Below are positions 19,953-43,450 of a stretch of DNA of 64,000 bases, in pieces. The DNA lies in the NCBI GenBank assembly GCA_963804165.1, contig CAWDPO010000045.1:64001-128000 (forward strand), read 5' to 3'. Positions within the stretch are counted from its first letter, which is position 1, and each line of letters starts with the position of its first letter. The notes beneath the pieces are model-generated. The model did not search any database, was not told the DNA's origin, and saw nothing but the letters and a program-made list of their open reading frames with translations. The DNA is from an uncultured delta proteobacterium (GTDB taxonomy: Bacteria > Desulfobacterota > Binatia > UBA9968). A program made the translations under genes and the position numbers.

Positions 19953-20075
19953 GCAACTGTTGTGCCGCGCCTTGGCACCAGACAAAGGTGACTTTCTCTA
20001 AACATTCCGAGACAAACTGCGGAGAATCGAAGAGCAGCGACGGCGCAAGCGTCGAAAACTTCGACCAAACGGTCG
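19953..20075 (-). promoter_or_regulatory. Sigma54 promoter A plus enhancer
   Basis: Minus strand CGGCACAACAGTTGC (19967-19953); enhancer GTCGAAAACTTCGACCAAACGGTCG at 20051-20075. Confidence 0.8.
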
Positions 20076-20126
20076 TTCCGTCGATTTACGAACTCGACGT
20101 TCTTTCCTGGCTTAATCATCGGCTGT

Positions 20127-20342
20127 TCAAGCCGGCTGATCTTCAAGCCGAAAGCCGAGCTTGACAGTAACCTGAAATTCCTTGACTTTGTCCTTATCAA
20201 CCAGCCCGCGCATTTCAGTCACCTCGAACCAGTCGACATGGCGTAGTGACTGACAAGCCTTCGCCACGGCGTTTTGGGTGGCTTCGCCAAAGCTGGTCTC
20301 AGAGATGCCGACGATTTCAATTTTCTTGTAAGTCCGTTCCAT
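20127..20342 (-). CDS. Dodecin (flavin-binding)
   Basis: TYKKIEIVGIS..A..NAV..WFEVTEMRG..FQVTVKLGFRLE. Confidence 0.92.
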   Translation of the reverse strand: MERTYKKIEIVGISETSFGEATQNAVAKACQSLRHVDWFEVTEMRGLVDKDKVKEFQVTVKLGFRLEDQPA

Positions 20343-20372
20343 GTGGCTTTCCTCCTCAGGCTTGTTTTTTTA

Positions 20373-20963
20373 TCATCGCGCTGCTACGCGCTTCTCTTCG
20401 ATGATAACTTGCCTCGGCTCCTTTACCTCAAGCAGTTCATCGAAGAGGGCGCGGTAATGCACAACCGCCTTGCGCAGCTCTTCGGTGTCCGCCGAGCCCC
20501 GCTGATCGGCCACAGCGATGGCCTGCGCCGCTCGGTAATTGGCCACAACGTCCGGGTGATCGACTGAAATGTCGCCCGCACGGCGCTCAAAATCACCCAT
20601 GGGGTAACCTCGCTTTTCCATCAATTCCCGAACCAACTGTTCGGCTTGGACGACCACTCCCTTGGGGTTGTCGACGAATCGGCTCTGTAATGCTTGCCAG
20701 GCCTCAGTGAATCTGGCGGCTTCCGGCGGCGCCAGAGGGAGAATCTCCAGCCGCTCGACGCGCTTTTCGCGCGCCTTGAGCTCCGATTCGCCCTTGGTTC
20801 GACCGCCTAATTCATTCACGGTTCGGCCGTATTCCGGGCCGAAGCGTTCTTGGAGCTTATGGGATTGCTTTTTTTGGTAGAAGAACGCGGCCCCAAGTGC
20901 AACCAACCCTAGGACCACAACGGCCGCAATTATAATCCACGTTTGTGTGTCTAACGTTTCCAT
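20373..20963 (-). CDS. Conserved membrane-anchored hypothetical protein
   Basis: N-terminal TM; RFGPEY, FVDNP, RGYP, TEELRKAVVHYRALF. Confidence 0.8.
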   Translation of the reverse strand: METLDTQTWIIIAAVVVLGLVALGAAFFYQKKQSHKLQERFGPEYGRTVNELGGRTKGESELKAREKRVERLEILPLAPPEAARFTEAWQALQSRFVDNPKGVVVQAEQLVRELMEKRGYPMGDFERRAGDISVDHPDVVANYRAAQAIAVADQRGSADTEELRKAVVHYRALFDELLEVKEPRQVIIEEKRVAAR

Positions 20964-21054
20964 CTGTACCTCCGTTTTTGATTTGATCGCTCGCTATCTT
21001 TGAATTAGTTGTCTCTATCTTGCTTCTTTTAATTCATGGTAATCATCAAACCCT

Positions 21055-21729
21055 TCACGCCAATTTCCTCAAAGCGTTGATTCTCTCTTCGGTTCCCGGG
21101 TGTGTAGATAAGAAACCACCACCACTGTCCCCTCCCGAGGTCCGCGTCAGCCAGGTCAGCGTGTCGATCATTACCTCTTTGGAATGACCGGCTCGACGCA
21201 AGATCTCGACACCGTGACGGTCCGCTTCCAACTCCTCTGAGCGGCTGTAGCTGTTTGCAATGAGCGCCCCCGCGATCGGGGTCACCGCGCTACTGCCCGG
21301 TATGAGCTGTTCGAGCAGAATTACGCCGATGTTGAGACCTGTACCCAAAGTCTGTGCTCTGGCCACGTGGCCAAGATCATCGTGAGCAATCTCGTGCGCC
21401 AGCACGCCTCTCAATTGCTCGTCGTTGGCCTTTGCAAGCAGCCCGGTCGTGACTTGAAACTCGCCGCCTCCCGCATTGGCGGCGTTGATGTTTGGATCGT
21501 CAATTACCCGAACTCGTATTTCATTTGAACGGCGCGGGTTAGTCGTCGCGCGCAGCAGCGGCAGCATGATCCGCTGCACTCGCTCCGTCTGCCTCGGATC
21601 GAGCGGACGGCCGGCCGAAGAGCGCGGTGTTTGTTGTGGGGCTGGCCCTCGCGATGAACTGGTCTCCAGCACGCAACCCGTTGTCGCCGTGGCGAGAATC
21701 AAAACTGCTATCATTCGAAGGAATCTCAT
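21055..21729 (-). CDS. M48 family metallopeptidase lipoprotein
   Basis: Lipobox TTGC; INA; VLAHEIAH; YSRSEELEAD; STHP. Confidence 0.9.
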   Translation of the reverse strand: MRFLRMIAVLILATATTGCVLETSSSRGPAPQQTPRSSAGRPLDPRQTERVQRIMLPLLRATTNPRRSNEIRVRVIDDPNINAANAGGGEFQVTTGLLAKANDEQLRGVLAHEIAHDDLGHVARAQTLGTGLNIGVILLEQLIPGSSAVTPIAGALIANSYSRSEELEADRHGVEILRRAGHSKEVMIDTLTWLTRTSGGDSGGGFLSTHPGTEERINALRKLA

Positions 21730-21912
21730 CGCTTCCCCGTCATCGGATCAAGCAACCCCGAAGGTAAATCGGTCAACGGTTGTCCCGAAGAAAACTGTCC
21801 ACCTCAAATCGTTCGCGATCGAGGAATCTTCCCTCGACTCCGACGTAATCCCCGAACCGAAGCGCCGGCGTTCTATTGAATTGGAAACCTATCCTGACTC
21901 CCGAGGGATTGC

Positions 21913-21928
21913 CGTCCAGTATTAGACA
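21913..21928 (-). promoter_or_regulatory. Crp-type box 5 (CGTCCAGTATTAGACA)
   Basis: TAGGTT 21 nt downstream. Confidence 0.72.
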
Positions 21929-21974
21929 GGATTGAAAAAATATCGGAGAAGTCCCCCTCGCGAGGCTCCGGGGG

Positions 21975-22049
21975 CTACCTCAGTCCCAAATAACCGGCGA
22001 CGAAAAGCACCACCACGATAACTCCTACAATGTAGAAAATATTATTCAT
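21975..22049 (-). CDS. 24-aa membrane microprotein (MNNIFYIVGVIVVVLFVAGYLGLR)
   Basis: Hand-translated; AGGAGG RBS; single TM helix. Confidence 0.7.
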   Translation of the reverse strand: MNNIFYIVGVIVVVLFVAGYLGLR

Positions 22050-22149
22050 GTCAGTTTCCTCCTTTCTTTGCGTGATCGGATTTTACCGTTGAGCCAGATG
22101 CCCATAGCATCACTCCGAGAAAGGGCAGTCGAGATCATCGCTCGATGTC

Positions 22150-22290
22150 TTACTGTCCGCTGAGACTCAATGGAATTTCAAGTTGAGTGATATTATTCGG
22201 AACGGGGTCCTGTTTCCTTGGAGGTACGTGGCCACAGTTTATGCAATAAAACTCTGGAACAATATAATTTTGGCAACGCGGACACTTCAT
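22150..22290 (-). CDS. 46-aa zinc-ribbon microprotein (MKCPRC...CINCG...)
   Basis: Hand-translated; two CxxC pairs; first ORF after sigma54 promoter B. Confidence 0.6.
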   Translation of the reverse strand: MKCPRCQNYIVPEFYCINCGHVPPRKQDPVPNNITQLEIPLSLSGQ

Positions 22291-22349: not shown

Positions 22350-22471
22350 GCAGGTTGTGTGCCAGACCGGTGGTAAGCAAAAGAGTGGATTTCGATTGAA
22401 TTTTTTAGGCTTTCAGGATGGAGAAGAGATGAGGCTCGTCAAGACCGTCGAGACCTTCGACCAAAAGGTCG
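22350..22471 (-). promoter_or_regulatory. Sigma54 promoter B plus enhancer
   Basis: TGGCACACAACCTGC (22364-22350); enhancer 22447-22471. Confidence 0.8.
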
Positions 22472-22944
22472 GACTCGACTATTTCGTTCTGCGACTGTTT
22501 TTTCTTTCACGATGCGAGGTGATGTAGATCTCCAGTCTTCGCCAACCGGGTGTAGTAGTTCGTAATTGATTGATAGACACATAATCAGCCACTTCGCCTT
22601 TTTAGATGGAAGGCATCATCAGGGAAGGTCTCACGTGGCGTCGGGCAAGAAAAAAGATGAGCTACGACACAATCGAGAATCTCGCTTAGTTCTGTAGGGA
22701 GAACGAGGGCGTCGCCTTCCTTTTCTCATTCGTGCCCGACCGGATCGCGCAGTTCATCAAATCGAGATCTATCAGCCCGCCGGATCGTTCAATGCCGACC
22801 AGCCTATGCCAGACCTCTCTGGAAGACGTTCGCAGTCCGACATTCGTATAGTAAACTGCAGACAAGCCCCTGCTTCACTGTTTTTTTTAACGCGGCCGGC
22901 GCAGTCTTGGAAAAGAGGCGATCAGCGTCGAGGCCAGCTTGGAA

Positions 22945-23295
22945 TTACGCCAGTGTATGGTGCGGAATTTCCGACGGAGAAGGGTGTGTGGTCTTGAATA
23001 GCGCCTTTTCCGCTTCGAGTTCTTGGACCCGGTGTTCGAGATCCGCTACCGTATGTTTGGTTTTTTTCATCGCGCGATCTTTTCCGTAGATGGTGAGCGT
23101 GGAGGAAACCGACCTAGCAAAATAGAGAATCCATGCCATGAAGAGCCCAACAAACAACGACCCCACGATAACCAGATACAAGGGGACATCATCCCAGACA
23201 TATTCATTGAGTCGGATCGTAACCGGGCTAATGTTTTGCATTCCAAAGTAAGCGATCGCGACGCCGGAAATAACTGCAACAAGTAATACCAACAT
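22945..23295 (-). CDS. LapA/DUF1049-family membrane protein
   Basis: FGMQN..PVTI..VPLYLVI; two TM segments plus coiled coil. Confidence 0.75.
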   Translation of the reverse strand: MLVLLVAVISGVAIAYFGMQNISPVTIRLNEYVWDDVPLYLVIVGSLFVGLFMAWILYFARSVSSTLTIYGKDRAMKKTKHTVADLEHRVQELEAEKALFKTTHPSPSEIPHHTLA

Positions 23296-23375
23296 ATTTT
23301 TCTAACCTTCTTTCTTTTGCCTCAGAGTCTATCGATATTCGGCATTTTATTGCGAAGGGCTCAGCGGTCCTTCTC

Positions 23376-23549
23376 TCAGGACTGTGGATCCTTTTGTCGG
23401 GTCGCGGTCACGCCATGGACGATCGCCAGGCCGATCAGACAGAGAATGCCCACCCCGATCCACTGCATCGGCACGTGGAGCAGATTGGCTCCGATCGCCA
23501 GGCCGGCGATCAGTATGATGTATCCGACCAGGTAAATTCCAAATGACAT
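23376..23549 (-). CDS. 57-aa two-TM small protein (MSFGIYLVGYIILIAGLAIGA...TRQKDPQS)
   Basis: Hand-translated; AAGGAGA RBS. Confidence 0.7.
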   Translation of the reverse strand: MSFGIYLVGYIILIAGLAIGANLLHVPMQWIGVGILCLIGLAIVHGVTATRQKDPQS

Positions 23550-23681
23550 GGGTATTTCTCCTTGACTACTACTTTTATTGAATTTTCTTCCCGTAAGCCC
23601 CTTTTTTCCTGACCCGAGAATAAAGCGACTCGGCAGGATTTCTTGCAGGTAAATGCGATAGGGTTGGGCGGCACGGCCATC

Positions 23682-24362
23682 CTAGGCAATCTGCGCGAGG
23701 TAATCGGTGAGTTTGTTTTCCTTGATGATGAGAAAATGATCGCTATTGGTTTCGATCAATCCCAGGTTGCGAAATCGCTGCATGAAGAAGCTGATCCGAG
23801 GCCGTGTCGTGCCCACCATCGCGGATAATTCTTCATGGGAAATCTTCAGCTCGATGCGAATACTGCGCGGATCTTTCTTGCCCATGGTGCGGGCCAATTG
23901 CAGCAACGTCTGACCCAGCCGTTGCTCGCTGTCCGCCGTCACCAGATTGGCGATGACGTGCTGTTGGTCGGCGATACGAACGGCCAGGTAGCGCACGAAT
24001 CCCTCAGACAAGGAGTCGCGGTTTAAGCGCGCAAAGAACTGGGCACAGGGTATTTGTTTTAACGTCGTTGGTTTCATCGCCACCGCAGTTTCGTGCCGCG
24101 CCCCTAACCCGGATAAGCACAGCTCGCCGAAAACATCTCCGCTGCTATGGATGGCCAGCAGACATTCTTTACCTTCGGGCGAGAGCAGAAGCAGCTTGAT
24201 CTGGCCGGTCTCGATGAAATAGACCATCTCGTCCTGGTCGCCGCAGGTGTAAACATTCGCGTGCCGTGCGAACGTCACAGGACGAGAGTTCAGCGTCTCG
24301 TGCTGCAACGAATCGCGCATTTGCTCTTTGAAGCGTTCCGCTTCGGGAGTCTGTTGAATCAT
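23682..24362 (-). CDS. Crp/Fnr family transcriptional regulator (paralog 2)
   Basis: Closely similar to 4766-5455; HTH SHEELSAMVGTTRPRIS. Confidence 0.92.
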   Translation of the reverse strand: MIQQTPEAERFKEQMRDSLQHETLNSRPVTFARHANVYTCGDQDEMVYFIETGQIKLLLLSPEGKECLLAIHSSGDVFGELCLSGLGARHETAVAMKPTTLKQIPCAQFFARLNRDSLSEGFVRYLAVRIADQQHVIANLVTADSEQRLGQTLLQLARTMGKKDPRSIRIELKISHEELSAMVGTTRPRISFFMQRFRNLGLIETNSDHFLIIKENKLTDYLAQIA

Positions 24363-24407
24363 GGGTCGCGTTTCCGACTAATGGCGCTGAGCCCAATCTC
24401 CGGCGCT

Positions 24408-24450
24408 CTTTTGAACAAGTAACCTCAGGAGTGAAACCCTATGCCTTAAA
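24408..24450 (-). ncRNA. Conserved leader element, copy L2 (partial)
   Basis: UUAAGGCAUAGGGUUUCACUCCUGAGGUUACUUG, nearly identical to the 5' part of L3. Confidence 0.45.
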
Positions 24451-24484
24451 TTCCTCTAACCTTTCTTGCATGCTTGCGACCCCT

Positions 24485-24634
24485 TTAAAGCCGGCCGGTC
24501 AAGAGCAGAACAACCACGATCAGCAGAACGACACCAGCGAGACCCGAGGGCGCAAAGCCAAATTTGTGAAAACCCCAGTTCGGTAGACCTCCCACCAGAA
24601 ACAGAAGCAATACGATCAACAGTATCAGGCTCAT
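24485..24634 (-). CDS. DUF3309 family small protein, 49 aa
   Basis: Hand-translated MSLILLIVLLLFLVGGLPNWGFHKFGFAPSGLAGVVLLIVVVLLLTGRL. Confidence 0.8.
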   Translation of the reverse strand: MSLILLIVLLLFLVGGLPNWGFHKFGFAPSGLAGVVLLIVVVLLLTGRL

Positions 24635-24680: not shown

Positions 24681-24803
24681 GCAGCTTACGTGCCAGTTCC
24701 CACGGTCAGGAAGAGACTGCATTTCGCGAGGGATTATTTAACGCTCCGGGGAAATCGGAGGGACGGTTCGGCGAAAGAGTCGAAACGATCGACCAAATGG
24801 TCG
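24681..24803 (-). promoter_or_regulatory. Sigma54 promoter C plus enhancer
   Basis: TGGCACGTAAGCTGC (24695-24681); enhancer 24779-24803. Confidence 0.8.
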
Positions 24804-25176
24804 AGTTACCTAGCGCGGCAGGGCTGCAACCAAAAAAACAGGGGATTCACCATGAAGGCACCAAGGACGCGAAGGGTTTGAATCATTTAAGTTTCAAGCT
24901 TCGTGCTCTTTCGTTGGGCACGGAAAATTGCGCAAACCGCGTAAACCTCCAATTAGGGTAGTACGGCAAACTACTGTGGTCAACGCGACAGCAGCGTAGG
25001 TCCGGAAAGTGGCGGCCGAGAATTTTGCTCGTTGGGAAAAAAACGACGAGCTCGATAGATTCTTAGTAAAGAGACGAATCAAATCAGAATCAGCGTCCCC
25101 GCCGTATGCGTTTCGATATACGACGGGAACGCTGATCCATGGGGCGTTGTTTGTTTAGCGCGCTAACCTCTCGTCG

Positions 25177-29452: not shown

Positions 29453-29755
29453 CTAGCCCCCCAGGTTTTCTCGCCTGTTTTCCTGATAGCCCTGCTTTTC
29501 GGCTTCCGTTGAGTGATCGACCGAATCGGAGCTCTTGCAATCCATGAGCTTCTTTCCCTGTTGCACGATCACGTCGGCAGTCTCGCGCAGCTTGCCTGCC
29601 TGCTGATTCAGGTAGTCCAGACTTTTACCGCCGCGTTCACGGAGCACCTCGCGCGTCTCTTTACGGCCGAGAATCGCGGCCATTAACCCGCCGACGGCTC
29701 CCAGACCTAGACCGATAAGTAAGTACGAAAATTTCGATTCGCCGTTCGTTGCCAT
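29453..29755 (-). CDS. YtxH-like general stress protein
   Basis: LLIGLGLGAVGGL..GRKETRE followed by amphipathic helices. Confidence 0.75.
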   Translation of the reverse strand: MATNGESKFSYLLIGLGLGAVGGLMAAILGRKETREVLRERGGKSLDYLNQQAGKLRETADVIVQQGKKLMDCKSSDSVDHSTEAEKQGYQENRRENLGG

Positions 29756-29799
29756 AAATTTCTCCTCTTAGAAAACTCTCGCGTTGGAACAGTCCGTCT

Positions 29800-30111
29800 C
29801 TAACGCTTGATAACTTGCAGATTGTTGACTACCCGTTTGACGCCGCTCACCTGCGACGAAACCGATCCGATGTGGGACTTCTGCTCGCCGGTCTCGACTT
29901 CGCCGGTGAGATAGACAATGCCGTTATTGGTCTCGACTCCCACTCGCGACAGGGTGACAAGCTTGTCTGTAGCAAGTTTAGTCTTTACGGACGAAGTAAG
30001 AGCTCCATCATCGAGGTTTTGTCCCATGGTCTCGCCGGTCATCGCCTGGCAACCGCTCATGAAAAAAAGAACTACCAACGTACCTGCCAACATTTTAAAT
30101 TTCCGGATCAT
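29800..30111 (-). CDS. BON domain lipoprotein
   Basis: Lipobox MSGC; DD..LTSSVK..L; VET.NGIVYLTG; VSGVKRVVNNL. Confidence 0.9.
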   Translation of the reverse strand: MIRKFKMLAGTLVVLFFMSGCQAMTGETMGQNLDDGALTSSVKTKLATDKLVTLSRVGVETNNGIVYLTGEVETGEQKSHIGSVSSQVSGVKRVVNNLQVIKR

Positions 30112-30178
30112 AAATATCTCCTCACTAGTTTTGAAATGTTTGTTTTCTTGCTCAGCGCGTATAGTGACTCTCTGTCAA

Positions 30179-30397
30179 TTAATTTCTTTCCCAGTCCGAG
30201 TCCCTCCGATCCGGTCGCGAGTAACCCGCGCCGCGGTAAGGATCTCCATCCCAGCGGCGATCGTTCTTGTCATAGCTGCTCCCGACCCTGTCGTATCCGC
30301 TGTAATCGCCACGACGATTCCACTCGTAACATCCACTCGAAGCCAGCACGAAGCTGGCCGCGACAATTCCGTACATGGCCATTCCGAATGTGTTCAT
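30179..30397 (-). CDS. Small lipoprotein, D/R-rich
   Basis: AAGGAG RBS; lipobox SSGC. Confidence 0.6.
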   Translation of the reverse strand: MNTFGMAMYGIVAASFVLASSGCYEWNRRGDYSGYDRVGSSYDKNDRRWDGDPYRGAGYSRPDRRDSDWERN

Positions 30398-30462
30398 CGA
30401 ACTCTCCTTTTGCCGCAACGCTTCCCTGTGGATCGGCTCGAGCATCCCGATCAGCAAACCCG

Positions 30463-31089
30463 CTAGCGATTGTCCCGGAGAAAACTCTCTAGCTCGAATC
30501 GGTCGCGACTCGTGAACCGCCCTTCGACTCTGATGTAGTCACCGGCCCGCAGCGCGCGAAAACGATCCACGTCCGACCGCCGCGCATTGTTTGGCAAAGA
30601 AACAAAAAGACTCTGTCTGGACTGATCGCTCAATTCGAACGAGCTCTGCTGAAAGTTTACATGCTCCACTCTGCCATCGAGTGTTTGCATCGCCGTTGGC
30701 GGTTGACCGGCAGCGCCACGATCCGGATTCCGATCCCTTATACTTTCGTGGACGCGCACGAGATCCGTATACGAGTTGCCGCGTGAGTCCTGCCTCAGCT
30801 GCATGGAGACCTTATCGCCGCTCTCCAATTGGGCGACCGGATAGTCTCGGCCGCGATAAAGCGCACGGGCCTCAGTGCTATAACCGACCACCCGCTTGCG
30901 GCTGTCGTTCGGTCGCAAATGAATCTCCCGAGACGAAGTATCTATTCGGTCGATCTCTGCGAAGAGCTCGTCTTGATCCAATTGCAGCGTAGGTCTGCCC
31001 ACCAGGGCGATGTTGTCGCTGCAACCTGCGCTCATCGTCAACGCCAAACCGAGAATCACACAGGACGCCGCACGATTGAATGGATTCAT
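30463..31089 (-). CDS. Lipoprotein with two OB-fold-like repeats
   Basis: Lipobox SAGC; L..GD.V.V repeated twice. Confidence 0.7.
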   Translation of the reverse strand: MNPFNRAASCVILGLALTMSAGCSDNIALVGRPTLQLDQDELFAEIDRIDTSSREIHLRPNDSRKRVVGYSTEARALYRGRDYPVAQLESGDKVSMQLRQDSRGNSYTDLVRVHESIRDRNPDRGAAGQPPTAMQTLDGRVEHVNFQQSSFELSDQSRQSLFVSLPNNARRSDVDRFRALRAGDYIRVEGRFTSRDRFELESFLRDNR

Positions 31090-31099
31090 AATTTTGCTC

Positions 31100-31864: not shown

Positions 31865-32020
31865 GCCTAAACTACGTGAACGATGGATTGAAACGACAAG
31901 ATTACGGCTGCAACCATGACTGTGCGAGACTATTTTTCGAACGAACTTCTGAGATGCCACACGAGGGCAGGTACGGCTATGTCGGCTTTTAGCGGATCAA
32001 GACACGTTCCTAGTTTGTCT

Positions 32021-32245: not shown

Positions 32246-32521
32246 AAATTCTCCTAATCTCTCATCGCGGTTTGTTGCGACGTGATTTGTGCGCAAACCG
32301 AGTTGCGTTACCACGTTGGCCACCCTGAGAGCTGGATCAATGAACTATCCGCCACCAGCAGCTCGGTATCGAATCCTCTGACGAAGAGGGTTCGCAGCAT
32401 GCTGCTGGCAATGAACCCAACCGATTCAATTTTCGCCAAGTCCTCCAGAGCCCTTATTGTGGGCCCTTTCAGATCGGTTTGTTGTTCCGAGTGGGCAACT
32501 TATCGGGCAGGCCCGCGAGCG

Positions 32522-32602
32522 CTACCGGTGCCAACGAGAGTATCCCCAGCCCCCACCACCAATCAAAAGGAACACTAAAAGAACGATCAATAAAGTATCC
32601 AT
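32522..32602 (-). CDS. 26-aa membrane microprotein (MDTLLIVLLVFLLIGGGGWGYSRWHR)
   Basis: Hand-translated; AAGGAG RBS; first ORF after promoter E; DUF3309-like. Confidence 0.7.
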   Translation of the reverse strand: MDTLLIVLLVFLLIGGGGWGYSRWHR

Positions 32603-32645: not shown

Positions 32646-32769
32646 GCACGTTGTGTGCCAGAACTTGTTGTTCGAAAAAGACTATAGTTTCCGACTGCTT
32701 CTTTCGAGTTTTAGAGAAACAAGGATGAAAGAACCGTCGCGGCAGTCGAATCGCTCGACCAAAAGGTCG
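32646..32769 (-). promoter_or_regulatory. Sigma54 promoter E plus enhancer
   Basis: TGGCACACAACGTGC (32660-32646); enhancer 32745-32769. Confidence 0.8.
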
Positions 32770-32813
32770 AATTTGATTTGATTCGCGGACGGCCGTTAAC
32801 GAATCGGTGTGAT

Positions 32814-33236
32814 CTAATCTGGCCTGACTTCCGGGGTACCGGTGTCCAATTCGCCACGCCCCAGCGCTTCGCGTGCAGTGCGCGCGAGCTCTTCATAGCG
32901 CACGCGAAACCGCTCGAGGTCTGCTTCTTCGAGCCCCTCGAGATCGAGTAAGGCATTGTGCGCGCCACTCACGGCGCGAATCAGCTCGTCGAGTTTGAGT
33001 TGGACGGCGTGGCTATCGCGGTTCTGGGTATTCTGAATCAGAAATACCATCAGGAATGTGACGATCGTCGTGCCGGTGTTGATGACCAACTGCCATGTAT
33101 CACTGAACTTGAATATCGGCCCTGTGACGCACCACATCACGACGATCAAAGCCGCAGCCATGAACGCAGCCGGATGGCCGGTGGCTCGCGCCGTCCACTT
33201 GGCGAAGCGGGAAAAAGGCGATGAAGAATAAATCAC
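32814..33236 (-). CDS. Low-affinity iron permease family protein (Fet4-like)
   Basis: FSDTWQLVINTGTTIVTFLMVFLIQNTQNRD..QLKLDELIRA. Confidence 0.9.
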   Translation of the reverse strand: MIYSSSPFSRFAKWTARATGHPAAFMAAALIVVMWCVTGPIFKFSDTWQLVINTGTTIVTFLMVFLIQNTQNRDSHAVQLKLDELIRAVSGAHNALLDLEGLEEADLERFRVRYEELARTAREALGRGELDTGTPEVRPD

Positions 33237-33255
33237 GGTGGCATGGGCTTTCGAA

Positions 33256-33286
33256 TTTCAGATCTGTTGTTCATTGCCGGGCGGCA
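33256..33286. repeat. 31-bp direct repeat (copy at 34297-34327)
   Basis: TTTCAGAT(C/A)TGT(T/C)GTTCATTGCCGGGCGGCA, 29/31 identical. Confidence 0.7.
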
Positions 33287-33354
33287 GAGAGTTATTTAAA
33301 TAACGTTCCCTCTGCCACCAACCATTGTCTCTAGCCAGTCGGGAGACTCCGGGA

Positions 33355-33567
33355 CTAAAATTTGCCGGCTATAGCTTTGGCCGCAGTCACTACCGCGGCA
33401 CCGGTTTTTCGGCGCGCCTTGCCGACTTTCTCTTGAATTTTACCTGCTACGCGTTCAGCTTTGCCTTTGGCTTGCAGTCTAGGATTGCCGATCAATTTTC
33501 CGGCTTTCTCCTTAATTGCTCCCTCGATTTGTTGGCCCTTGCCTTTGATCTCAGCTTTATTCCACAT
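33355..33567 (-). CDS. csbD: CsbD family general stress protein (copy 1)
   Basis: WNK.EIKGK..QI.G.IKE..GKL.G..L.A.G.AE...GKIQE. Confidence 0.88.
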   Translation of the reverse strand: MWNKAEIKGKGQQIEGAIKEKAGKLIGNPRLQAKGKAERVAGKIQEKVGKARRKTGAAVVTAAKAIAGKF

Positions 33568-33629
33568 TCCTGTCTCCTTCCAAAGCTCAGATGACGGTCT
33601 TAAAATAAATCAAAACTTTATTGGTCTTC

Positions 33630-34244
33630 GACTAATCGTCAGTCTTCTGTTTTCTCTCGATCTTCTCTTCTTTAGTCTCAGTGGATTTTCCCTTGCTGGC
33701 AAGTTCTGCTTTCTTGGCCTTCTTTTCTTCCTGTGATTCCTTCTGTTCCACCACAGTCTGCTTGCCGCCTTTTGTTTCACCGTTCCCCTCTGGGCCCCTG
33801 GCCAGACCCGCTCCTGGTTTTTCCTTTGGGTCAGTACCTGTTTGTCTGCCGCCTTTCCTCTCGATTGTCTCGGGAGCTTTGATCGGCGTTGCAGGGACTT
33901 GTGGACTTCTCCTCAGCCTTTGCTCTGGGGCTCTCCACTGACCAGGGAAACAAAGGGCCTTCCGCAGTCAAGCCCTGAACAGGCGCTGAATTTTGGTCCA
34001 GCCTCACCGAGGTCCCGGTGTTGAGTTGGAACTCCATCTTTCCTCCCTCCGGCACCCACAGCTCGTCCCCTTCATTCAGAAGCGTGTTTACAGCAGCAGG
34101 GACCCAGTCACCCGCCTCGGTCGTCCTCATTTGAACATCGCCTTCCAAAAAGCTGATGCGCACGGAACCGAGGTCCAATGCATGGGCGAATCTGGGCAGC
34201 AGAAGTACCGCCATCGCCCATAAAATAACTTTTACTGTCTTCAT
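33630..34244 (-). pseudogene. Internally deleted FecR-domain secreted protein
   Basis: RISFLEGDV..WVPAAVN.LL.EGD.LW..G..VRL, then abrupt join to an out-of-frame K/E-rich tail. Confidence 0.6.
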
Positions 34245-34410: not shown

Positions 34411-34534
34411 GCAGGTTGCGTGCCAGGGCCGGAGATAGGAAATACGCTGCAATTCTCTGAGCTTGTTGTAGCGCGCCGCAGACAAACGAAAAGCGACTCG
34501 TTGAATGCGTCGATGGGCGTCGACCAAAAGGTCG
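34411..34534 (-). promoter_or_regulatory. Sigma54 promoter F plus enhancer
   Basis: TGGCACGCAACCTGC (34425-34411); enhancer 34509-34534. Confidence 0.8.
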
Positions 34535-34574
34535 ACTGAGACGGATAACTTGGAGAATTGAAAAAACCCGCCAC

Positions 34575-37897: not shown

Positions 37898-38317
37898 TTA
37901 TTCTTGTAAGCGCTGTAATTCTTCTTTGTGTTGCTGTTCATCTTTAACGATATCTTCAATGGTTTCGTAAAGAATTGCGCCGTCATTTCCGACCGAATCA
38001 AGTATCGACCGGTACATTTTAATAGCTGCTTCTTCCTCGGCGATGTTCACCCGCAGAATATCTTTCAAGGTCGTGGCCGGAATGAGATCTTTGGTGGCAA
38101 TCTCCATCGTCGGAGTTCCGGCTAAGGCCGTGATTCGGTCGCGCAGCTGAGCCGCATGAGTCTTTTCGTCTTCGGCTATTTCCTTGAGTCGAGTAGACAC
38201 CGCTTCCGCATAAGGCCCGGTGATAACCGCTGCATGGGTAAGATAACGAATCTGACATGCGTGCTCCTGAGCTAGAGCGTCATTAAGCATTTTGAGTATC
38301 TTGTCTTGGTTTTCCAT
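37898..38317 (-). CDS. Ferritin-like (bacterioferritin/Dps superfamily) protein
   Basis: QE..Y..H, EDEKTH, EE.A...Y, DEQQH di-iron pattern. Confidence 0.85.
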   Translation of the reverse strand: MENQDKILKMLNDALAQEHACQIRYLTHAAVITGPYAEAVSTRLKEIAEDEKTHAAQLRDRITALAGTPTMEIATKDLIPATTLKDILRVNIAEEEAAIKMYRSILDSVGNDGAILYETIEDIVKDEQQHKEELQRLQE

Positions 38318-38501
38318 TTTAGAGTATTTCCCCTTGTCCGATTAGAACTCGCACTTCTCACAATCCTTGTCGCCGATGGCCAAGCCGAAGTCACCGCTAG
38401 AAACGGTAACGAATTCTCCGGCGGGCGGCAGACAGTCGACTAAAAATTGTTTCCTCGCCGCCACCGGAGAAACCAGGCAAAGCCGTCGCAAGAATCGTTA
38501 A

Positions 38502-38714
38502 CTAAAGTTTGCCGGCAATCGCCTTGCCGACCTTCTGCACCGCTTCAGCGGTTTTTCGGCGCGCTTTTCCGCCCTTCTCCTGAATTTTACCTGCTACGCG
38601 TTCAGCCTCGCCTTTGGCTTCGAGTTTGGGATCCTTGATCAATTCCCCAGTCTTGTCCTTGATCGCGCCGGAAATTTGTTTGCCCTTACCTTTGATCTCG
38701 TCTTTGTTCCACAT
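38502..38714 (-). CDS. csbD: CsbD family general stress protein (copy 2)
   Basis: Close paralog of 33355-33567. Confidence 0.88.
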   Translation of the reverse strand: MWNKDEIKGKGKQISGAIKDKTGELIKDPKLEAKGEAERVAGKIQEKGGKARRKTAEAVQKVGKAIAGKL

Positions 38715-38902
38715 ACCTGTCTCCTTTTAAGTGTTTGGATCCTTACGCAAGGATCGGGTTGTTAAGTACCGATTAAACTTTCCAAACCTCAGTCGGGCTA
38801 AATCAAATTGCTTAGATGCTGGGTCATTTTTTCGTTTCTCGGTTCTAACCGAGCGAGGACGGAAGGGAGCGTGCGCTAATTCGCGATGTGCGAACTGTTC
38901 AG

Positions 38903-39085
38903 TCATCGAGTCGAAGAGCTGTACAAGAATAGGCGACAACCGACAGTGGCGCCAACAATTCCCAGTATGATCTCAAGCGCGCTAGGGTCGGCCCCTAAGA
39001 TCTGCGCGTATTGATGCTGTCCTGCCACGTTTCCTATCGACCAACCGACAAGTCCGATCAGTAAAAGCCAAATGATTGCGTACAT
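38903..39085 (-). CDS. GlsB/YeaQ/YmgE-like small membrane protein (possibly truncated)
   Basis: IIWLLLIGLVGW..G...IILGIVGATVG; GGAGAGG RBS. Confidence 0.55.
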   Translation of the reverse strand: MYAIIWLLLIGLVGWSIGNVAGQHQYAQILGADPSALEIILGIVGATVGCRLFLYSSSTR

Positions 39086-39132: not shown

Positions 39133-39256
39133 GCAACTTATATGCCGTACCGTCTCGTCGGGGAAAGACCGAATTTGCCTATGGATTTCTTAAGGTCGAA
39201 AAATAAAATCATTGAAGCCTCGTCGAGAGCGTCGAGACCTTTCGACCAAAGAGTCG
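39133..39256 (-). promoter_or_regulatory. Sigma54 promoter G plus enhancer
   Basis: CGGCATATAAGTTGC (39147-39133); enhancer 39231-39256. Confidence 0.78.
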
Positions 39257-39282
39257 GGTCGCTCGAGGCGTTTTTCGGTTTC

Positions 39283-40387: not shown

Positions 40388-42808
40388 CTACGGCCGTTCT
40401 TGAATCGCCTCACCATGATGCGTGTAGCGCACTGAAAGCGGCGCGTGCGGATTTGAAGGGTTAAGTGCAGTTAAGGATTCGCCCTTCGCGATCGAGCCGC
40501 CTGCGAGATAAGCATTGATGTTTCTTTCCATTTGCGCCGGAAACTCCGGCGCGGGGCCTACCAGCTTTTCGCGGTACACTCGGAGCATGAGTTCTTTGAA
40601 CACCGGCAGCGCTAGCCTGCCGCCGGTTTCTCGGGGTCCGAGGGAACGGTTGTCGTCGAAGCCTACACGGACGGCGACGGTGATTCCTTCGGGACCGTAA
40701 GTCGAGCCGACAAAGAGCGCGTCTCTGAACTCGTTTGTCGTCCCTGTCTTGCCCATAACCGCGATCGGGAAAAAGCCAGAGTCAAGTGTATGAGCCGAGC
40801 CGGTGGGAATACGCACGACACCACGCAGGCCTTCCTGAATGAGCGCGAGTGCGGAGTCGTTGACATCGATCGTATGCCGCTCTCTCTCGTTATCAGCCGC
40901 AACCTCACCCGTACCGCGGACGATTTTGCGGATCAGATACGGCTCTGCGAGGATACCCGACGCCATGGTGCGGTAGGCATTGGCCAGCTCAAGCAAATTC
41001 ACTTCGGACGCGCCCAACGCCGTCGTGGCATAGGGCTGCAATCGCGTCTTAACCCCTAGACTCCGCGACGTTCCCAGGACGCTGTCAATCCCAATCTGCC
41101 CTGTAAGCCAAATCGCTACGGTGTTTCTGGATTCCGCGAGCGCCTCACGGACCGGGATCATGCCTCGGAATTGTTCATCATAGTTTGAGATCCACTTCGT
41201 ACTTAGTTTCTCTGCATCCGGAACACCGATGGGTTCGTCGGGAACCACGGTCTCAAGATTAAAAGTTCCCTGCCGAAAAGCAGCGAGGTAGGCAAACGGT
41301 TTCATTGTCGACCCGGGTTGCCGCAGGGACTTGGTGACGCGGTTAAAGTCGCTGTATACGGCGGAGCGGTCCTGGTAAAATTGACGACCGCCCGTCTCGG
41401 CGAGGATGCTCGCGTCGCGGTTTCTCAACACGACGACAGAACCTTGGATTATCCCTTTGGCACTCGGGTGTCGTTTCTCGTAAAACTCGAGGCCGCGCTC
41501 CAGCGCCTCGTTGGCAATTTGCTGCACCCGGAGATCCACCGTCGAGTAAACCTGGATGCGTCCCTGCAAAAGATCGTTAACGCTGAAGTCGCCACGGCCT
41601 TTGAGCGCCTGCAGGATAGCTCCGAAGACCGCGGGCGCTTGAAGCATCTTGTCTTTGCGTCGCGCGATCGCTTGAAGCGGCCGCTGCTCGGCTGAATTCA
41701 CAATGTCCCGGGAAATGAAACCGTTTGCCGCCATCAGCGCCAGAGTTTGGTTTCTGCGGCGCAACACCCTTGAGGTGTCCTTCGCATTGGGGGCGTAGTC
41801 GCGCGGCGACTTCGCGATGCCTGCGAGCAGCGCTGCCTTGTCGGCGTCATCGGCGTTGAACGTGGCGAGAGACCGGCCAAAATAGTATTCCGCCGCCGTG
41901 GCAAACCCGTACCGGCTGTTTCCCATGTAAATGAAGCTGGCGTAGCGGGCCAGAATTTCTTGCTTAGCGCTGCGTTTCGAACCGAAACGCTTCTGCATCT
42001 CTCTTTCGATCCACAACGACAGGCGAATCTCCTCCACCTTGCGACCTAACATGTTGACGGTCCGCGCGCCGATCAGGGTAGACAGCGTGCGAGGGAAGAT
42101 TCCGGCAGACAGGAGCTGGTTGCTGTTTTCTTTCGCCGTTAAGTTTTTGAGAAAATGACCCCGAACGAGCTGTTGAGTGATCGTCGATCCGCCTTGCGGG
42201 AGAAACGCCGGACTCTCAACTTCGTCTTGCGCTCCGAGTCCTATGAGGCGTGCCCCCAGAGCCCGAATCCTGACTTTGCTCAGCACGCGAGGAATTACCG
42301 AATAGTCAACGCCGCTATGAGAGAAGAAGCGTTTGTCTTCGGTCGCGATGATGGCATCACGAACAATCGGCGGGATGTCCGTATACTTGGTGATCTTCCG
42401 ATACTCTTTTGCCGTTTCAATGAGCGGCTGGCCGCCGGCATCATAGACGGTGCCGATGGTAGGAAACTCAAAGCGGGCGAAGGCTTCTATGTCAGGCAAG
42501 TCACGTCGGTCAAAATAGACGTGATAAAATCCAATTGATACGACAGCGGCTAAAATCGGCGTCGTGCAAACTACAAGGTTAAAAACGCTTTTCTGCCAAT
42601 GTCGTTTGGCGAAGCGGCTACTGAAGATTCTCCGAGCCTCCCCCGGAGCACTCACGCGCATACGTCTGAGCCAGTCCCAGCGAGTCTGTGGATCGGGCGC
42701 CGGCAAAATCTTTCGCGCGCCGCCGGCCGCGGTGGAAGCTATGACCCCTAAGCCCACCAGTCCGGCGGTTAGAGCAATGAGAAGAAACATCAGCGACCAA
42801 TACAACAT
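40388..42808 (-). CDS. Class A penicillin-binding protein (GT51 plus transpeptidase) with DUF1328-like N-terminus
   Basis: EDKRFFSH.GVD, GGSTITQQL, RKVEE; STMK, SRN, KTGT. Confidence 0.88.
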   Translation of the reverse strand: MLYWSLMFLLIALTAGLVGLGVIASTAAGGARKILPAPDPQTRWDWLRRMRVSAPGEARRIFSSRFAKRHWQKSVFNLVVCTTPILAAVVSIGFYHVYFDRRDLPDIEAFARFEFPTIGTVYDAGGQPLIETAKEYRKITKYTDIPPIVRDAIIATEDKRFFSHSGVDYSVIPRVLSKVRIRALGARLIGLGAQDEVESPAFLPQGGSTITQQLVRGHFLKNLTAKENSNQLLSAGIFPRTLSTLIGARTVNMLGRKVEEIRLSLWIEREMQKRFGSKRSAKQEILARYASFIYMGNSRYGFATAAEYYFGRSLATFNADDADKAALLAGIAKSPRDYAPNAKDTSRVLRRRNQTLALMAANGFISRDIVNSAEQRPLQAIARRKDKMLQAPAVFGAILQALKGRGDFSVNDLLQGRIQVYSTVDLRVQQIANEALERGLEFYEKRHPSAKGIIQGSVVVLRNRDASILAETGGRQFYQDRSAVYSDFNRVTKSLRQPGSTMKPFAYLAAFRQGTFNLETVVPDEPIGVPDAEKLSTKWISNYDEQFRGMIPVREALAESRNTVAIWLTGQIGIDSVLGTSRSLGVKTRLQPYATTALGASEVNLLELANAYRTMASGILAEPYLIRKIVRGTGEVAADNERERHTIDVNDSALALIQEGLRGVVRIPTGSAHTLDSGFFPIAVMGKTGTTNEFRDALFVGSTYGPEGITVAVRVGFDDNRSLGPRETGGRLALPVFKELMLRVYREKLVGPAPEFPAQMERNINAYLAGGSIAKGESLTALNPSNPHAPLSVRYTHHGEAIQERP

Positions 42809-42908
42809 AGCCTGTACTCTATGATCTCTGATTATCTGTCGCAGTTCAGTTAGCCTGGAAACCCATCGGGACTCGTCTTCGCCGCGACTACACCCCGTTC
42901 GGGCCGAG

Positions 42909-43106
42909 TTAAGACAACTTCCCCACATGGATCGCGGAGAGCGAGCTGATAAGTCCAAAAACATTCAGCAGCCACAGAACTACGCCGATGACCACGACCC
43001 CATTCAGGATCGACTTGATAGATCCTGCCATCGGTATGTAGCGATTAACGAGCCCGAGCAGAACACCGATTACGATCAAGATCACTACGAGTTGAACTAA
43101 AGGCAT
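42909..43106 (-). CDS. Thivi_2564-family small membrane protein
   Basis: LIVIGVLL.LVN.YIPM..SIK.ILN.VVVI.VVLWLL. Confidence 0.8.
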   Translation of the reverse strand: MPLVQLVVILIVIGVLLGLVNRYIPMAGSIKSILNGVVVIGVVLWLLNVFGLISSLSAIHVGKLS

Positions 43107-43162
43107 AAACCACCCCCTATGTCCGGACCAGCGGCTTTAGGGCTGTTCCCGGTTATGTATTG

Positions 43163-43288
43163 TTAGTGAGCCGATTTGCGGTTCAACCTCATCGCCGCGG
43201 TAATCAACCGACGATCGGCCATGAGGCCGAGTGATAATGCGCCCGTCTGCAGCAAAATCATGATGACGACTAAAATGGTTGCGAGCAT
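43163..43288 (-). pseudogene. Frameshifted DUF3309-like gene
   Basis: MLATILVVIMILLQTGAL, then TRPHGRS in another frame; first ORF after promoter H. Confidence 0.45.
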
Positions 43289-43325
43289 ACCGCTTCCCCG
43301 TAAAGACTTTAGAAGCTAAGTGTGC

Positions 43326-43450
43326 GCAAGCCTCGTGCCGCAACTCTTTTTGAGGGAAAGGCTAAATGTTCCGATAGATTTCCTAAGCAGTCAGGATAAG
43401 CAACTCGAGAAAGCTCGTCGGTAGCGTCGAGACTTTCGACCAAACGGTCG
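43326..43450 (-). promoter_or_regulatory. Sigma54 promoter H plus enhancer
   Basis: CGGCACGAGGCTTGC (43340-43326); enhancer 43426-43450. Confidence 0.8.

What the first reader, a model, noticed from the sequence alone, without database searches (positions are those of the whole stretch)
19953..43450. Eight sigma54 promoters with the same compound enhancer at fixed distance
Minus-strand GG-N10-GC elements (mostly YGGCAC...TGC) at 19953, 22350, 24681, 31742, 32646, 34411, 39133 and 43326. Each has GTCGA-N5/6-TCGAC-CAAAN-(G/A)GTCG at 20051, 22447, 24779, 31840, 32745, 34509, 39231 and 43426, i.e. 85, 84, 85, 85, 86, 85, 85 and 87 bp from the -24 GG. The element is two overlapping palindromes plus a further (T)CG(T/G)Y half-site about 10 bp promoter-proximal, consistent with tandem binding of an enhancer-binding protein on one helix face. 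The intervening DNA is not conserved, so spacing appears selected. I do not recognise this site.
Basis: seen in the sequence. Interest (0 to 1): 0.82.

Follow-up and report, generated by a model that had tools for sequence, protein, structure and literature searches.

The report
Sigma-54 stress regulon with fixed enhancer
Eight look-alike sigma-54 promoters, each with the same two-part enhancer at a fixed distance, appear to put a 23-kb island of small stress and envelope genes under one neighbouring two-component activator; this is a new example of a well-known kind of bacterial switch.

Summary
All eight GTCGA-N5/6-TCGAC sites and all eight GG-N10-GC boxes are where stated, 84-87 bp apart. 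The extended site scores 40-52 bits at these eight places and at most 22 bits elsewhere in the 7.5-Mb genome.

The enhancer is best read as two direct copies of a 15-bp unit (CGAC-N2-TTT-N-G-N-CGA), 21 bp apart. It travels with the adjacent histidine kinase/NtrC-type activator operon (15722-19909) across three families of the order. Family f3 has one copy per genome, always upstream of that operon, and f1 has up to eight.

The spacer is not unconserved. It carries A/T tracts locked in helical register with the promoter.

The promoters drive CsbD, DUF3309, entericidin, BON, YtxH, ferritin-like, OmpA-like and tiny membrane-peptide genes. The same families recur in relatives.

Best reading: an autoregulated, Cache-sensor two-component system that activates a stress/envelope regulon through sigma-54. 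The mechanism is of a known kind; the activator lineage, site and regulon are undescribed in the literature I searched. No transcription start or binding data exist.

The parts
20038..20076 (-). UAS 1 (two 15-bp units), upstream of P1
   Evidence: PWM 40.0 bits; sequence
19953..19966 (-). P1 sigma-54 box GGCACAACAGTTGC
   Evidence: 85 bp from the core site
19007..19909 (-). First gene of the P1 operon: secreted OmpA-domain protein. Its residues 59-143 are shared with the small periplasmic first gene of the f2 operons.
   Evidence: Pfam OmpA 1.2e-16; 36% identity, E 2e-15 to L056:3917-4348
17116..18894 (-). Sensor histidine kinase: TM1, ~275-aa periplasmic Cache-type domain, TM2, HisKA-HATPase
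15722..17143 (-). NtrC-family response regulator / enhancer-binding protein (REC, AAA+ with GAFTGA, HTH_8); proposed binder of the UAS
22434..22472 (-). UAS 2
   Evidence: PWM 51.8 bits
22350..22363 (-). P2 sigma-54 box
20373..22290 (-). P2 genes: 46-aa zinc-ribbon peptide (22150-22290), 24-aa TM peptide (21975-22049), M48 peptidase (21055-21729), 196-aa unknown (20373-20963)
24766..24804 (-). UAS 3
   Evidence: PWM 50.6 bits
24681..24694 (-). P3 sigma-54 box
22945..24634 (-). P3 genes: DUF3309 (24485-24634), Crp/Fnr-family regulator (23682-24362), LapA-domain protein (22945-23295)
31827..31865 (-). UAS 4
   Evidence: PWM 52.3 bits
31742..31755 (-). P4 sigma-54 box
29453..31694 (-). P4 genes: entericidin-domain lipoprotein (31548-31694), 75-aa lipoprotein (31100-31327), 208-aa lipoprotein (30463-31089), BON/OsmY-like (29800-30111), YtxH-like (29453-29755). 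How far the transcript runs beyond 29453 is unknown.
32732..32770 (-). UAS 5
   Evidence: PWM 40.4 bits
32646..32659 (-). P5 sigma-54 box
32021..32602 (-). P5 genes: 26-aa DUF3309-like TM peptide (32522-32602), 74-aa unknown family (32021-32245)
34496..34535 (-). UAS 6 (N6 spacer)
   Evidence: PWM 50.0 bits
34411..34424 (-). P6 sigma-54 box
32814..34244 (-). P6 genes: 137-aa secreted unknown (33831-34244), CsbD (33355-33567), low-affinity iron permease family (32814-33236)
39218..39257 (-). UAS 7 (N6 spacer)
   Evidence: PWM 48.3 bits
39133..39146 (-). P7 sigma-54 box (GGCAT variant)
37898..39085 (-). P7 genes: 60-aa TM protein (38903-39085), CsbD (38502-38714), ferritin-like (37898-38317)
43413..43451 (-). 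UAS 8
   Evidence: PWM 48.0 bits
43326..43339 (-). P8 sigma-54 box
40388..43288 (-). P8 genes: 41-aa TM peptide (43163-43288), Thivi_2564-family membrane protein (42909-43106), class A PBP (40388-42964)

Best explanation
The island is the regulon of one two-component system.

Proposed pathway:
1. The kinase (17116-18894) senses something outside the cytoplasm through a periplasmic Cache-type domain.
2. It phosphorylates the NtrC-family activator (15722-17143).
3. Two activator dimers bind side by side to the two 15-bp units of each enhancer. The distal unit is strong and the proximal unit weak, and they start 21 bp (two helical turns) apart, centred about 117 bp upstream of the predicted start.
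4. The dimers nucleate the ATPase ring.
5. A short DNA loop brings the ring to sigma-54 RNA polymerase waiting at the -24/-12 box. A-tracts and T-tracts fixed in helical register in the spacer help the loop form.
6. ATP hydrolysis opens the promoter.

Consequences. P1 drives the system's own operon, so the response amplifies itself. The other seven promoters drive small membrane peptides, CsbD, entericidin-type and other lipoproteins, BON, YtxH, ferritin-like, an M48 protease, a class A PBP and a Crp-family regulator. This is a stress and envelope protection set.

Shown by sequence: the sites, their spacing, their exclusivity, their conservation, and their linkage to this operon.

Inferred: binding by this protein, the stoichiometry, the bend, the signal and the physiological role.
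For: Exclusivity.
- Eight sites score 40-52 bits; the next best in 7.5 Mb scores 22.
- There are 8 perfect extended matches, all in the island.

Machinery.
- rpoN is present.
- The activator has REC, Sigma54_activat, AAA_lid and HTH_8 domains.
- GAFTGA and the receiver aspartate region align with ZraR.

Linkage of the site to this operon.
- In f2, the single site lies upstream of the periplasmic protein-kinase-activator operon in 3 of the 4 f2 loci read (L055-L057). The fourth, L058, has a degenerate site.
- In f3, a variant occurs exactly once per genome in 18 of 28 genomes. All 18 lie 3.6-5.0 kb upstream of the activator ortholog on the same strand. There are 0 hits in f1 and f2, and 0 hits with the reversed control.
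- In two genomes that hold a second 70%-identical copy of the system, that copy's operon carries a distinct variant (CAAATGG, N4).
- The HTH recognition helix SERALRYKL is nearly invariant in 21 orthologs, matching the invariant TCGAC half-site.

Conservation across the order.
- TTTGGTCGA-N5/6-TCGAC gives 114 matches in 40 of 123 genomes, against 11 matches for the reversed control.
- Several genomes carry clustered co-oriented copies: 8, 8, 7, 7, 6, 6, 5 and 5.

Geometry.
- GTCGA-to-GG distance is 98 (7), 99 (17), 100 (17), 101 (7) and 88 (1) bp in 49 promoters.
- Unconstrained spacer zones are 32-34% identical pairwise, against 26% expected.

Tandem units.
- Distal and proximal units agree at 11 of 15 consensus positions.
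- The proximal CG was outside my search pattern and is kept in 48 and 47 of 49 sites.

Spacer.
- Information peaks lie at about -60, -40, -30, -18 and -7 from GG.
- AA/TT power peaks at 10.5 bp, z = 13.5.

Regulon.
- The same families sit behind these promoters in 8 f1 genomes: 26-aa peptide 8 of 8; CsbD 7; 24-aa peptide 7; DUF3309 6; Crp-like 6; entericidin, BON and YtxH 5 each.

Sensor.
- The AlphaFold model has pLDDT 77.
- Foldseek matches Cache and dCache sensor domains at E 3e-7 to 1e-4.

Negative control.
- Of 123 motif-bearing loci from all taxa, 27 sites have a sigma-54-like box at 96-104 bp (2 of these boxes are poor).
- The 25 good ones lie in records titled delta proteobacterium or Deltaproteobacteria (19), Candidatus Binatia (3), Thermodesulfobacteriota (1), Pyrinomonadaceae (1) and 'bacterium' (1).
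- The other 96 loci have no box.
Against: - No experiment supports the reading: there is no mapped start, footprint or expression response.
- The genome encodes about 28 strong matches to this activator type, so another one could in principle read the site.
- The 49 promoters come from related genomes and from paralogous modules, so they are not independent. Part of the shared spacing could be inherited.
- Co-occurrence of the exact motif and the activator ortholog in f1+f2 is imperfect (my tally). The motif is in 27 of 42 genomes with the ortholog and in 13 of 53 without. Many of these are incomplete bins. Two of the 13 turned out to hold a truncated copy or a frameshifted copy.
- Six of 55 UAS-like hits (47 in the relatives' loci, plus the 8 in the window) lacked a box at the expected place. 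One of them is a perfect UAS at L044:2439.
- A/T-tract phasing is not special to this regulon. 48 other likely sigma-54 promoters of this genome also show it (z 7.6). Only the fixed register is special.
- The stress role rests on family names of small proteins whose functions are mostly untested.
Confidence: 0.8

Rival explanations
1. The enhancer is read by a different regulator: another of the genome's many sigma-54 activators, or a non-EBP protein. The neighbouring two-component system would then be merely one of its targets.
For: The genome has about 28 strong matches to this activator type. Fis-type HTH specificity cannot be predicted from sequence. The motif and the ortholog do not co-occur perfectly.
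Against: The site sits upstream of this particular operon in f1, f2 and f3, including 18 of 18 single-copy f3 cases. When the system is duplicated, the copy has its own site variant. The recognition helix is conserved along with the half-site.
Confidence: 0.07
2. The conserved A/T-tract element between enhancer and promoter is a binding site for a second protein rather than an intrinsic bend. Candidates are an IHF/HU-type bender with a lineage-specific consensus, or the Crp-family regulator encoded behind P3. The promoters would then integrate two inputs.
For: GRAA-N6-12-YTTYC lies at -45 to -8 in 21 of 49 promoters, against 0.22 in shuffles. Its positions are fixed relative to the box. The genome has three HU/IHF-family genes. 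A Crp-family gene is a conserved regulon member (6 of 8 f1 genomes).
Against: The E. coli IHF consensus (recalled motif) is not enriched: 2 of 49 promoters with at most 1 mismatch against 2.5 in shuffles, and 15 of 49 with at most 2 mismatches against 18.6. Similar tracts are seen by eye at the f2 and f3 autoregulatory promoters. I looked for a Crp-like gene only within 3 kb downstream of the three f2 promoters and found none, and I did not look in f3. The element reads as phased tracts more than as a dyad.
Confidence: 0.25
3. The eight modules look alike mainly because they are recent duplicates of one promoter cassette. The fixed spacing would be inherited rather than selected, and some copies may no longer function.
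For: Downstream genes include paralogs: two CsbD genes and two DUF3309-type genes. Operons are reshuffled between genomes, which implies that the modules move.
Against: Outside the named elements the spacers are close to random (32-34% identity against 26% expected), yet length stays at 83-86 bp in 48 of 49 promoters. Orthologous promoters in different genera and families keep the same distance. The one outlier is shorter by 11 bp, close to one helical turn.
Confidence: 0.05

Closest known systems
ZraPSR of E. coli (sigma-54-dependent envelope stress two-component system)
   Same: A sensor kinase with a periplasmic domain is paired with an NtrC-family response regulator. The system regulates its own operon. 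Targets are envelope and stress proteins. The ZraR site in the zraP-zraS intergenic DNA has the same 5-N5-5 dyad geometry and is also present twice.
   Different: The activator is 47% identical to ZraR, no closer than to its own paralogs in this genome. It scores 443 against the ZraR equivalog cutoff of 760, and the kinase scores 256 against 479. The kinases align only in the catalytic core. No ZraP-like protein was found. The half-sites differ (GAGTA/GACTC against GTCGA/TCGAC). There are eight promoters here rather than a divergent pair.
NtrC at glnAp2 and DctD at dctA (tandem activator sites upstream of a sigma-54 promoter; recalled from memory, not checked in a call)
   Same: Two dimer sites lie on one face of the helix about 100-140 bp upstream. 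They are of unequal strength and act cooperatively to build the active oligomer. Huo et al. 2009 (PMC2709558, passages read) give 100-140 bp as the usual enhancer distance and discuss intrinsic bends in IHF-independent promoters.
   Different: The units here are packed 21 bp apart and in direct orientation. The site sequence is unrelated. The same geometry is repeated at dozens of promoters.
NorR at norVW (three enhancer sites needed for ring assembly)
   Same: Multiple adjacent sites are needed together to assemble an active ATPase (PMC2831303, abstract read).
   Different: There are two units here, not three. The sensor is a separate kinase rather than an N-terminal GAF domain. There are many target promoters.
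Desulfovibrio vulgaris sigma-54 response regulators DVU3305 ('general stress response') and DVU3381, DVU1419 ('envelope stress response')
   Same: These are two-component EBPs assigned to stress operons, including their own (PMC4641369, passages read).
   Different: Those regulons have one to three operons. Neither TCGAC nor GTCGA occurs in that paper's main text. Orthology was not tested.
General stress regulons of RpoS, SigB and EcfG
   Same: The gene content is alike: CsbD, BON/OsmY-like, entericidin, ferritin/Dps-like and small membrane proteins. That these are hallmarks of those regulons is recalled from memory. PMC7083833 appeared only in a search listing.
   Different: Control here is by an activator of sigma-54, not by a dedicated sigma-70-family factor. 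The genes are clustered in one island.

Membership tests
Sigma-54 (RpoN) dependent promoter | GG and GC doublets 10 nt apart within a TGGCAC-N5-TTGC-like box, upstream of a gene | tested here: met
   8 of 8 boxes fit GGCAY-N6-TGC. The first start codon lies 37-47 nt past the box at 6 promoters and 60 nt past it at P2. At P6 it lies 166 nt past.
Sigma-54 (RpoN) dependent promoter | rpoN present in the genome | tested here: met
   Sigma54_DBD at 210 bits on contig C38
Sigma-54 (RpoN) dependent promoter | Transcription starts about 12 nt past the GC and depends on RpoN | not testable with these tools
   Only assembled RNA contigs of relatives were available, and these cannot show starts.
Bacterial enhancer-binding protein, response-regulator class (NtrC family) | Receiver domain, AAA+ sigma-54 interaction domain with GAFTGA, C-terminal Fis-type HTH | tested here: met
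   Pfam Response_reg 7.6e-31, Sigma54_activat 6.8e-72, HTH_8 8.9e-14. GAFTGA is visible in the alignment.
Bacterial enhancer-binding protein, response-regulator class (NtrC family) | Binds upstream activating sequences about 100-150 bp from the promoter | tested here: inconclusive
   A conserved site at the right place is linked to its operon. Binding itself was not tested.
ZraSR | Scores above the NCBIfam equivalog cutoffs for ZraR and ZraS | tested here: not met
   443 against 760, and 256 against 479
ZraSR | A ZraP (CpxP/Spy-type) partner gene under its control | tested here: not met
   The first genes of the operons have no Pfam family and no similarity to ZraP.
AtoSC | Scores above the AtoC equivalog cutoff | tested here: not met
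   540 against 714
Cache-type extracytoplasmic sensor kinase | Periplasmic alpha/beta PAS-like module(s) after a long N-terminal helix, between two TM segments | tested here: met
   TM segments near residues 15-37 and 314-340. Model pLDDT is 77. Foldseek hits Cache and dCache domains such as 9heh, 3lif, 5wbf and 4ywz. Pfam sCache_3_2 matches only weakly (5.5e-4, below its cutoff).
IHF-dependent sigma-54 promoter | A match to the IHF consensus between enhancer and promoter | tested here: not met
   2 of 49 promoters with at most 1 mismatch, against 2.5 in shuffles. The consensus is E. coli's, recalled from memory, and may not apply to this lineage.

The most novel reading that the evidence does not exclude
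In this uncultured lineage the general stress response is run by a sigma-54 activator instead of a dedicated stress sigma factor. An ancestral, purely self-regulating kinase/activator operon (one site per genome in f3 and f2) captured the classic stress toolkit in f1: CsbD, OsmY-like BON, entericidin, Dps-like and tiny membrane peptides. It did so by spreading a rigid enhancer-spacer-promoter cassette to as many as eight operons. The cassette works without IHF because its bend is built into the DNA.
Probability: 0.3. Interest if true: 0.65.

Novelty: new member of a known kind. Interest (0 to 1): 0.5.

Why it matters
- It assigns a cis-element, a regulator and a coherent gene set to each other in a soil lineage with no cultured member, using sequence alone. 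That gives a testable handle on how these bacteria meet stress.
- It offers a natural series of several dozen promoters. The enhancer, the promoter and the distance between them are held fixed while the rest of the spacer has drifted. This is useful material for the old question of how short DNA loops are made stereospecific at sigma-54 promoters.
- It shows a regulon growing from one operon to eight within one order.
- It puts many 24-60-residue membrane peptides, which gene callers usually miss, under a defined promoter.

Tried and rejected
RNA evidence. One search found only soil RNA libraries holding 5-7% of the sampled words. Laying four of them gave assembled contigs, mostly 90-95% identical, so they come from relatives. 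They cover several of the small genes but cannot show starts, strand or level. I draw nothing from them about transcription.

Other routes that led nowhere:
- Terminator and sigma-70 scans did not define operon ends. Terminator-like hits were 36 against 24.5 expected and 24 against 14.6 expected.
- ZraP identity of the f2 first gene was rejected.
- A Pfam scan of the shared N-terminal domain of the first operon gene at E up to 5 gave nothing.
- The protein atlas gave no usable hit for the 74-aa family.
- The E. coli-type IHF site was rejected.
- An RpoS equivalog was not found above cutoff (best 294 against 378.7). The genome is only 81% complete, so this is weak.
- Earlier notes of this scan held nothing for this place or these words.

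Literature. I searched for a sigma-54 / CsbD / entericidin / DUF3309 stress regulon, for EBP motif catalogues and for the ZraR regulon.
- No description of this site or regulon turned up.
- PMC12316311 has 0 occurrences of CsbD, entericidin, 'general stress' or 'envelope stress' in its main text.
- I read no supplements, and motif tables there could bear on this.

Full report
**What is there**

Shuffles expect 0.23, and none of 100 shuffles reached 8. Exactly eight GGCAY-N6-TGC boxes occur in the window, all on the minus strand and all next to one of those sites. That count alone is not unusual (4.44 expected), so the pairing is the signal. The distances of 85, 84, 85, 85, 86, 85, 85 and 87 bp are reproduced.

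Read on the minus strand, each module has four parts:
- a ~39-bp upstream element
- about 84 bp of spacer
- a TGGCAC-N5-TTGC-like box
- a start codon, 37-47 nt past the box at six promoters, 60 nt at P2 and 166 nt at P6

**Is it more than chance?**

The bare core is common in this 7.5-Mb, 55.8% GC genome: 96 hits, mostly inside genes. The extended form occurs without mismatch only eight times, all in this island. A two-block weight matrix scores the eight at 40.0-52.3 bits and the next best place in the genome at 22.2 bits. The matrix was trained on these sites and their relatives, so the eight match partly by construction.

In these loci, 27 sites have a sigma-54-like box 96-104 bp from the GTCGA, and two of those boxes are poor. 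The 25 good ones lie in records titled as follows:
- delta proteobacterium or Deltaproteobacteria: 19
- Candidatus Binatia: 3
- Thermodesulfobacteriota: 1
- Pyrinomonadaceae: 1
- 'bacterium': 1

The 96 other loci, from many phyla, have no box. That serves as a negative control and suggests which lineage this is.

**Anatomy of the enhancer**

I aligned 49 promoters: the 8 here and 41 from ten related genomes. The element resolves into two direct copies of one 15-bp unit:
- distal: CGACCnTTTGGTCGA, nearly invariant
- proximal: CGACGcTttcGaCGa, degenerate

The two agree at 11 of 15 consensus positions. They start 21 bp apart in 46 promoters and 22 bp apart in 3. The distal positions were part of my search pattern, so their invariance is partly by selection. 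The proximal CG was not in the pattern and is kept in 48 and 47 of 49 sites.

Two units two helical turns apart, in the same orientation, one strong and one weak, fit two activator dimers bound cooperatively on one face.

**The spacer**

Most positions are: pairwise identity is 32-34% against 26% expected from composition. Length, however, is held at 83-86 bp in 48 of 49 promoters. The one exception is 11 bp shorter, about one helical turn.

Anchored on the GG, information peaks appear:
- a T-tract at -62 to -59
- A-tracts at -43 to -39 and -31 to -28
- a T-tract at -20 to -18
- A at -7 and -6

AA/TT periodicity peaks at 10.5 bp, z = 13.5 against shuffles. The E. coli IHF consensus (recalled) is not enriched.

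Forty-eight other likely sigma-54 promoters of this genome also show 10.5-bp A/T phasing (z 7.6), but with no fixed positions. So phasing is general here, and only the locked register is special to this regulon. I read this as a built-in bend that makes a short loop stereospecific. A lineage-specific bending protein remains possible.

**Who binds the enhancer?**

The genes just downstream of P1 are:
- an OmpA-domain protein (19007-19909)
- a histidine kinase (17116-18894)
- an NtrC-family activator (15722-17143) with receiver, AAA+ and Fis-type HTH domains and GAFTGA

rpoN is present.

Orthologs of the activator (65-88% identity) stand clear of paralogs (48% or less). They occur in 69 of 123 genomes of the order: f1 37 of 89, f2 4 of 5, f3 27 of 28. 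The kinase travels with the activator.

The exact motif TTTGGTCGA-N5/6-TCGAC occurs 114 times in 40 of the 123 genomes, against 11 times for the reversed control. Copies are clustered and co-oriented in several f1 genomes.

| Family | State of the site |
|---|---|
| f2 | A single site precedes a small periplasmic protein-kinase-activator operon in 3 of the 4 loci read; the fourth (L058) has a degenerate site |
| f3 | A variant (GTCGA-N5-TTCGACYCTTTGG) occurs exactly once per genome in 18 of 28 genomes. All 18 lie 3.6-5.0 kb upstream of the activator ortholog on the same strand. None in f1 or f2; none with the reversed control |
| f1 genomes G014 and G015, which carry a second 70%-identical copy | That copy's operon has its own variant: CAAATGG and an N4 spacer |

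The HTH recognition helix is nearly invariant in 21 orthologs. No other regulator gene is linked to the site in this way. These tallies include two unpublished genomes (G005, G093); no other claim rests on them.

Co-occurrence is not perfect. By my tally, 27 of 42 f1+f2 genomes with the ortholog have the exact motif, and 13 of 53 without it do. Many of these are incomplete bins. Two of the 13 hold a truncated or frameshifted copy.

**What is controlled?**

The eight promoters drive these genes:

| Promoter | Genes |
|---|---|
| P1 | the system's own operon |
| P2 | 46-aa zinc-ribbon peptide, 24-aa membrane peptide, M48 protease, 196-aa unknown |
| P3 | DUF3309, a Crp/Fnr-family regulator, a LapA-domain protein |
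| P4 | entericidin-domain lipoprotein, two further lipoproteins, BON (OsmY-like), YtxH-like |
| P5 | 26-aa DUF3309-like peptide, 74-aa unknown |
| P6 | 137-aa secreted unknown, CsbD, a low-affinity iron permease family protein |
| P7 | 60-aa membrane protein, CsbD, ferritin-like |
| P8 | 41-aa peptide, Thivi_2564-family membrane protein, class A PBP |

The same families sit behind these promoters in the eight f1 genomes sampled, in different operon combinations:
- 26-aa peptide: 8 of 8
- CsbD: 7
- 24-aa peptide: 7
- DUF3309: 6
- Crp-like regulator: 6
- 74-aa family: 6
- entericidin, BON, YtxH and the two lipoproteins: 5 each

Only parts of those islands were fetched, so these are lower bounds.

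From memory, this set resembles the hallmark genes of RpoS, SigB and EcfG general stress regulons. No RpoS equivalog scores above cutoff here, but the genome is only 81% complete.

**The input**

The kinase has two membrane segments around a ~275-residue periplasmic domain. That domain is conserved across the order, with 64% mean column identity over 22 sequences. The model (pLDDT 77) shows a long helix followed by alpha/beta modules. Its best structural matches are Cache and dCache sensor domains of chemoreceptors and kinases.

Residues 59-143 of the first operon gene recur as a stand-alone periplasmic protein at the head of the f2 operons. They match no family. This protein may be an accessory to sensing. 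The signal itself is unknown.

**Comparison with known systems**

The mechanism proposed is the textbook one for sigma-54 activators.

- ZraPSR is the nearest named system by score. It has the same overall logic, and its own site has the same 5-N5-5 geometry, present twice. Membership fails on the equivalog cutoffs, on the lack of a ZraP-like partner, on the sensor domain and on the site sequence.
- AtoC also scores below its cutoff.
- Kazakov et al. 2015 (PMC4641369, passages read) list D. vulgaris sigma-54 response regulators for envelope and general stress with one to three operons. Their text holds neither half-site.
- Huo et al. 2009 (PMC2709558, passages read) give 100-140 bp as the usual enhancer distance and discuss intrinsic bends.
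- Tucker et al. 2010 (PMC2831303, abstract read) show that multiple adjacent sites can be jointly required for ring assembly.

Five literature searches found no description of this site or regulon. I read no supplementary tables.

**Verdict**

It is a new member of a known kind: an uncharacterised activator lineage with its site and an unusually large, island-confined, stress-type regulon in an uncultured soil lineage. Its growth from one operon to eight can be traced. Its interest lies in the clean natural series of fixed-geometry promoters and in the possibility that sigma-54 runs the general stress response here. All of this rests on sequence comparison. Starts, RpoN dependence, binding and the signal are untested.

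Noticed in passing
window 5747-7210 and 47101-48666 (both minus strand): Two PAS-GGDEF diguanylate cyclase genes, 82% identical over 485 residues, lie in the same orientation on either side of the island, about 41 kb apart. They may mark a duplication that frames the island.
   Followed up: partly
window 40388-42964: The class A PBP reading frame carries a DUF1328-like small membrane protein segment at residues 53-84, ahead of the transglycosylase domain. This is either a fusion or a separate small gene merged by my ORF call.
   Followed up: no
window 33275-37865: RNA contigs of relatives in two runs (X3, X7) join about 33275/33285 directly to 37865, skipping about 4.6 kb. In G083 the iron-permease gene follows the ferritin-like gene directly. 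This window therefore seems to hold an insertion there: the P6 module plus three plus-strand genes (unknown, FGase-family, transglutaminase-like).
   Followed up: partly
window 13500-46000: Sigma-70-type consensus promoters are fewer than in shuffles: 6 against 11.1 expected, and 0 against 6.0 expected. The consensus is E. coli's and may not fit this organism.
   Followed up: no
G014:C4 (L189) and G015:C5 (L188): A second, 70%-identical copy of the kinase/activator operon has its own enhancer variant, TCGACCAAATGG(T/G)CGA-N4-TCGAC. This looks like a natural case of paralog insulation by spacer length and linker sequence.
   Followed up: partly
window 10555-13397, 48796-49782, 53796-55973: Other proteostasis and envelope genes sit around the island without the enhancer: HSP20 plus Lon, an MlaC protein with a weak CsbD-like N-terminal match, and FtsH.
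   Followed up: no
L044:2439 (G015): A perfect enhancer has no recognisable sigma-54 box at the expected distance. It is either a diverged box or an orphan site.
   Followed up: no
L090 and L105 (named records): The full composite (enhancer plus box at 100 and 104 bp) also occurs in one record titled Pyrinomonadaceae and one titled only 'bacterium'. This could be mis-binning, transfer or a wider distribution.
   Followed up: no
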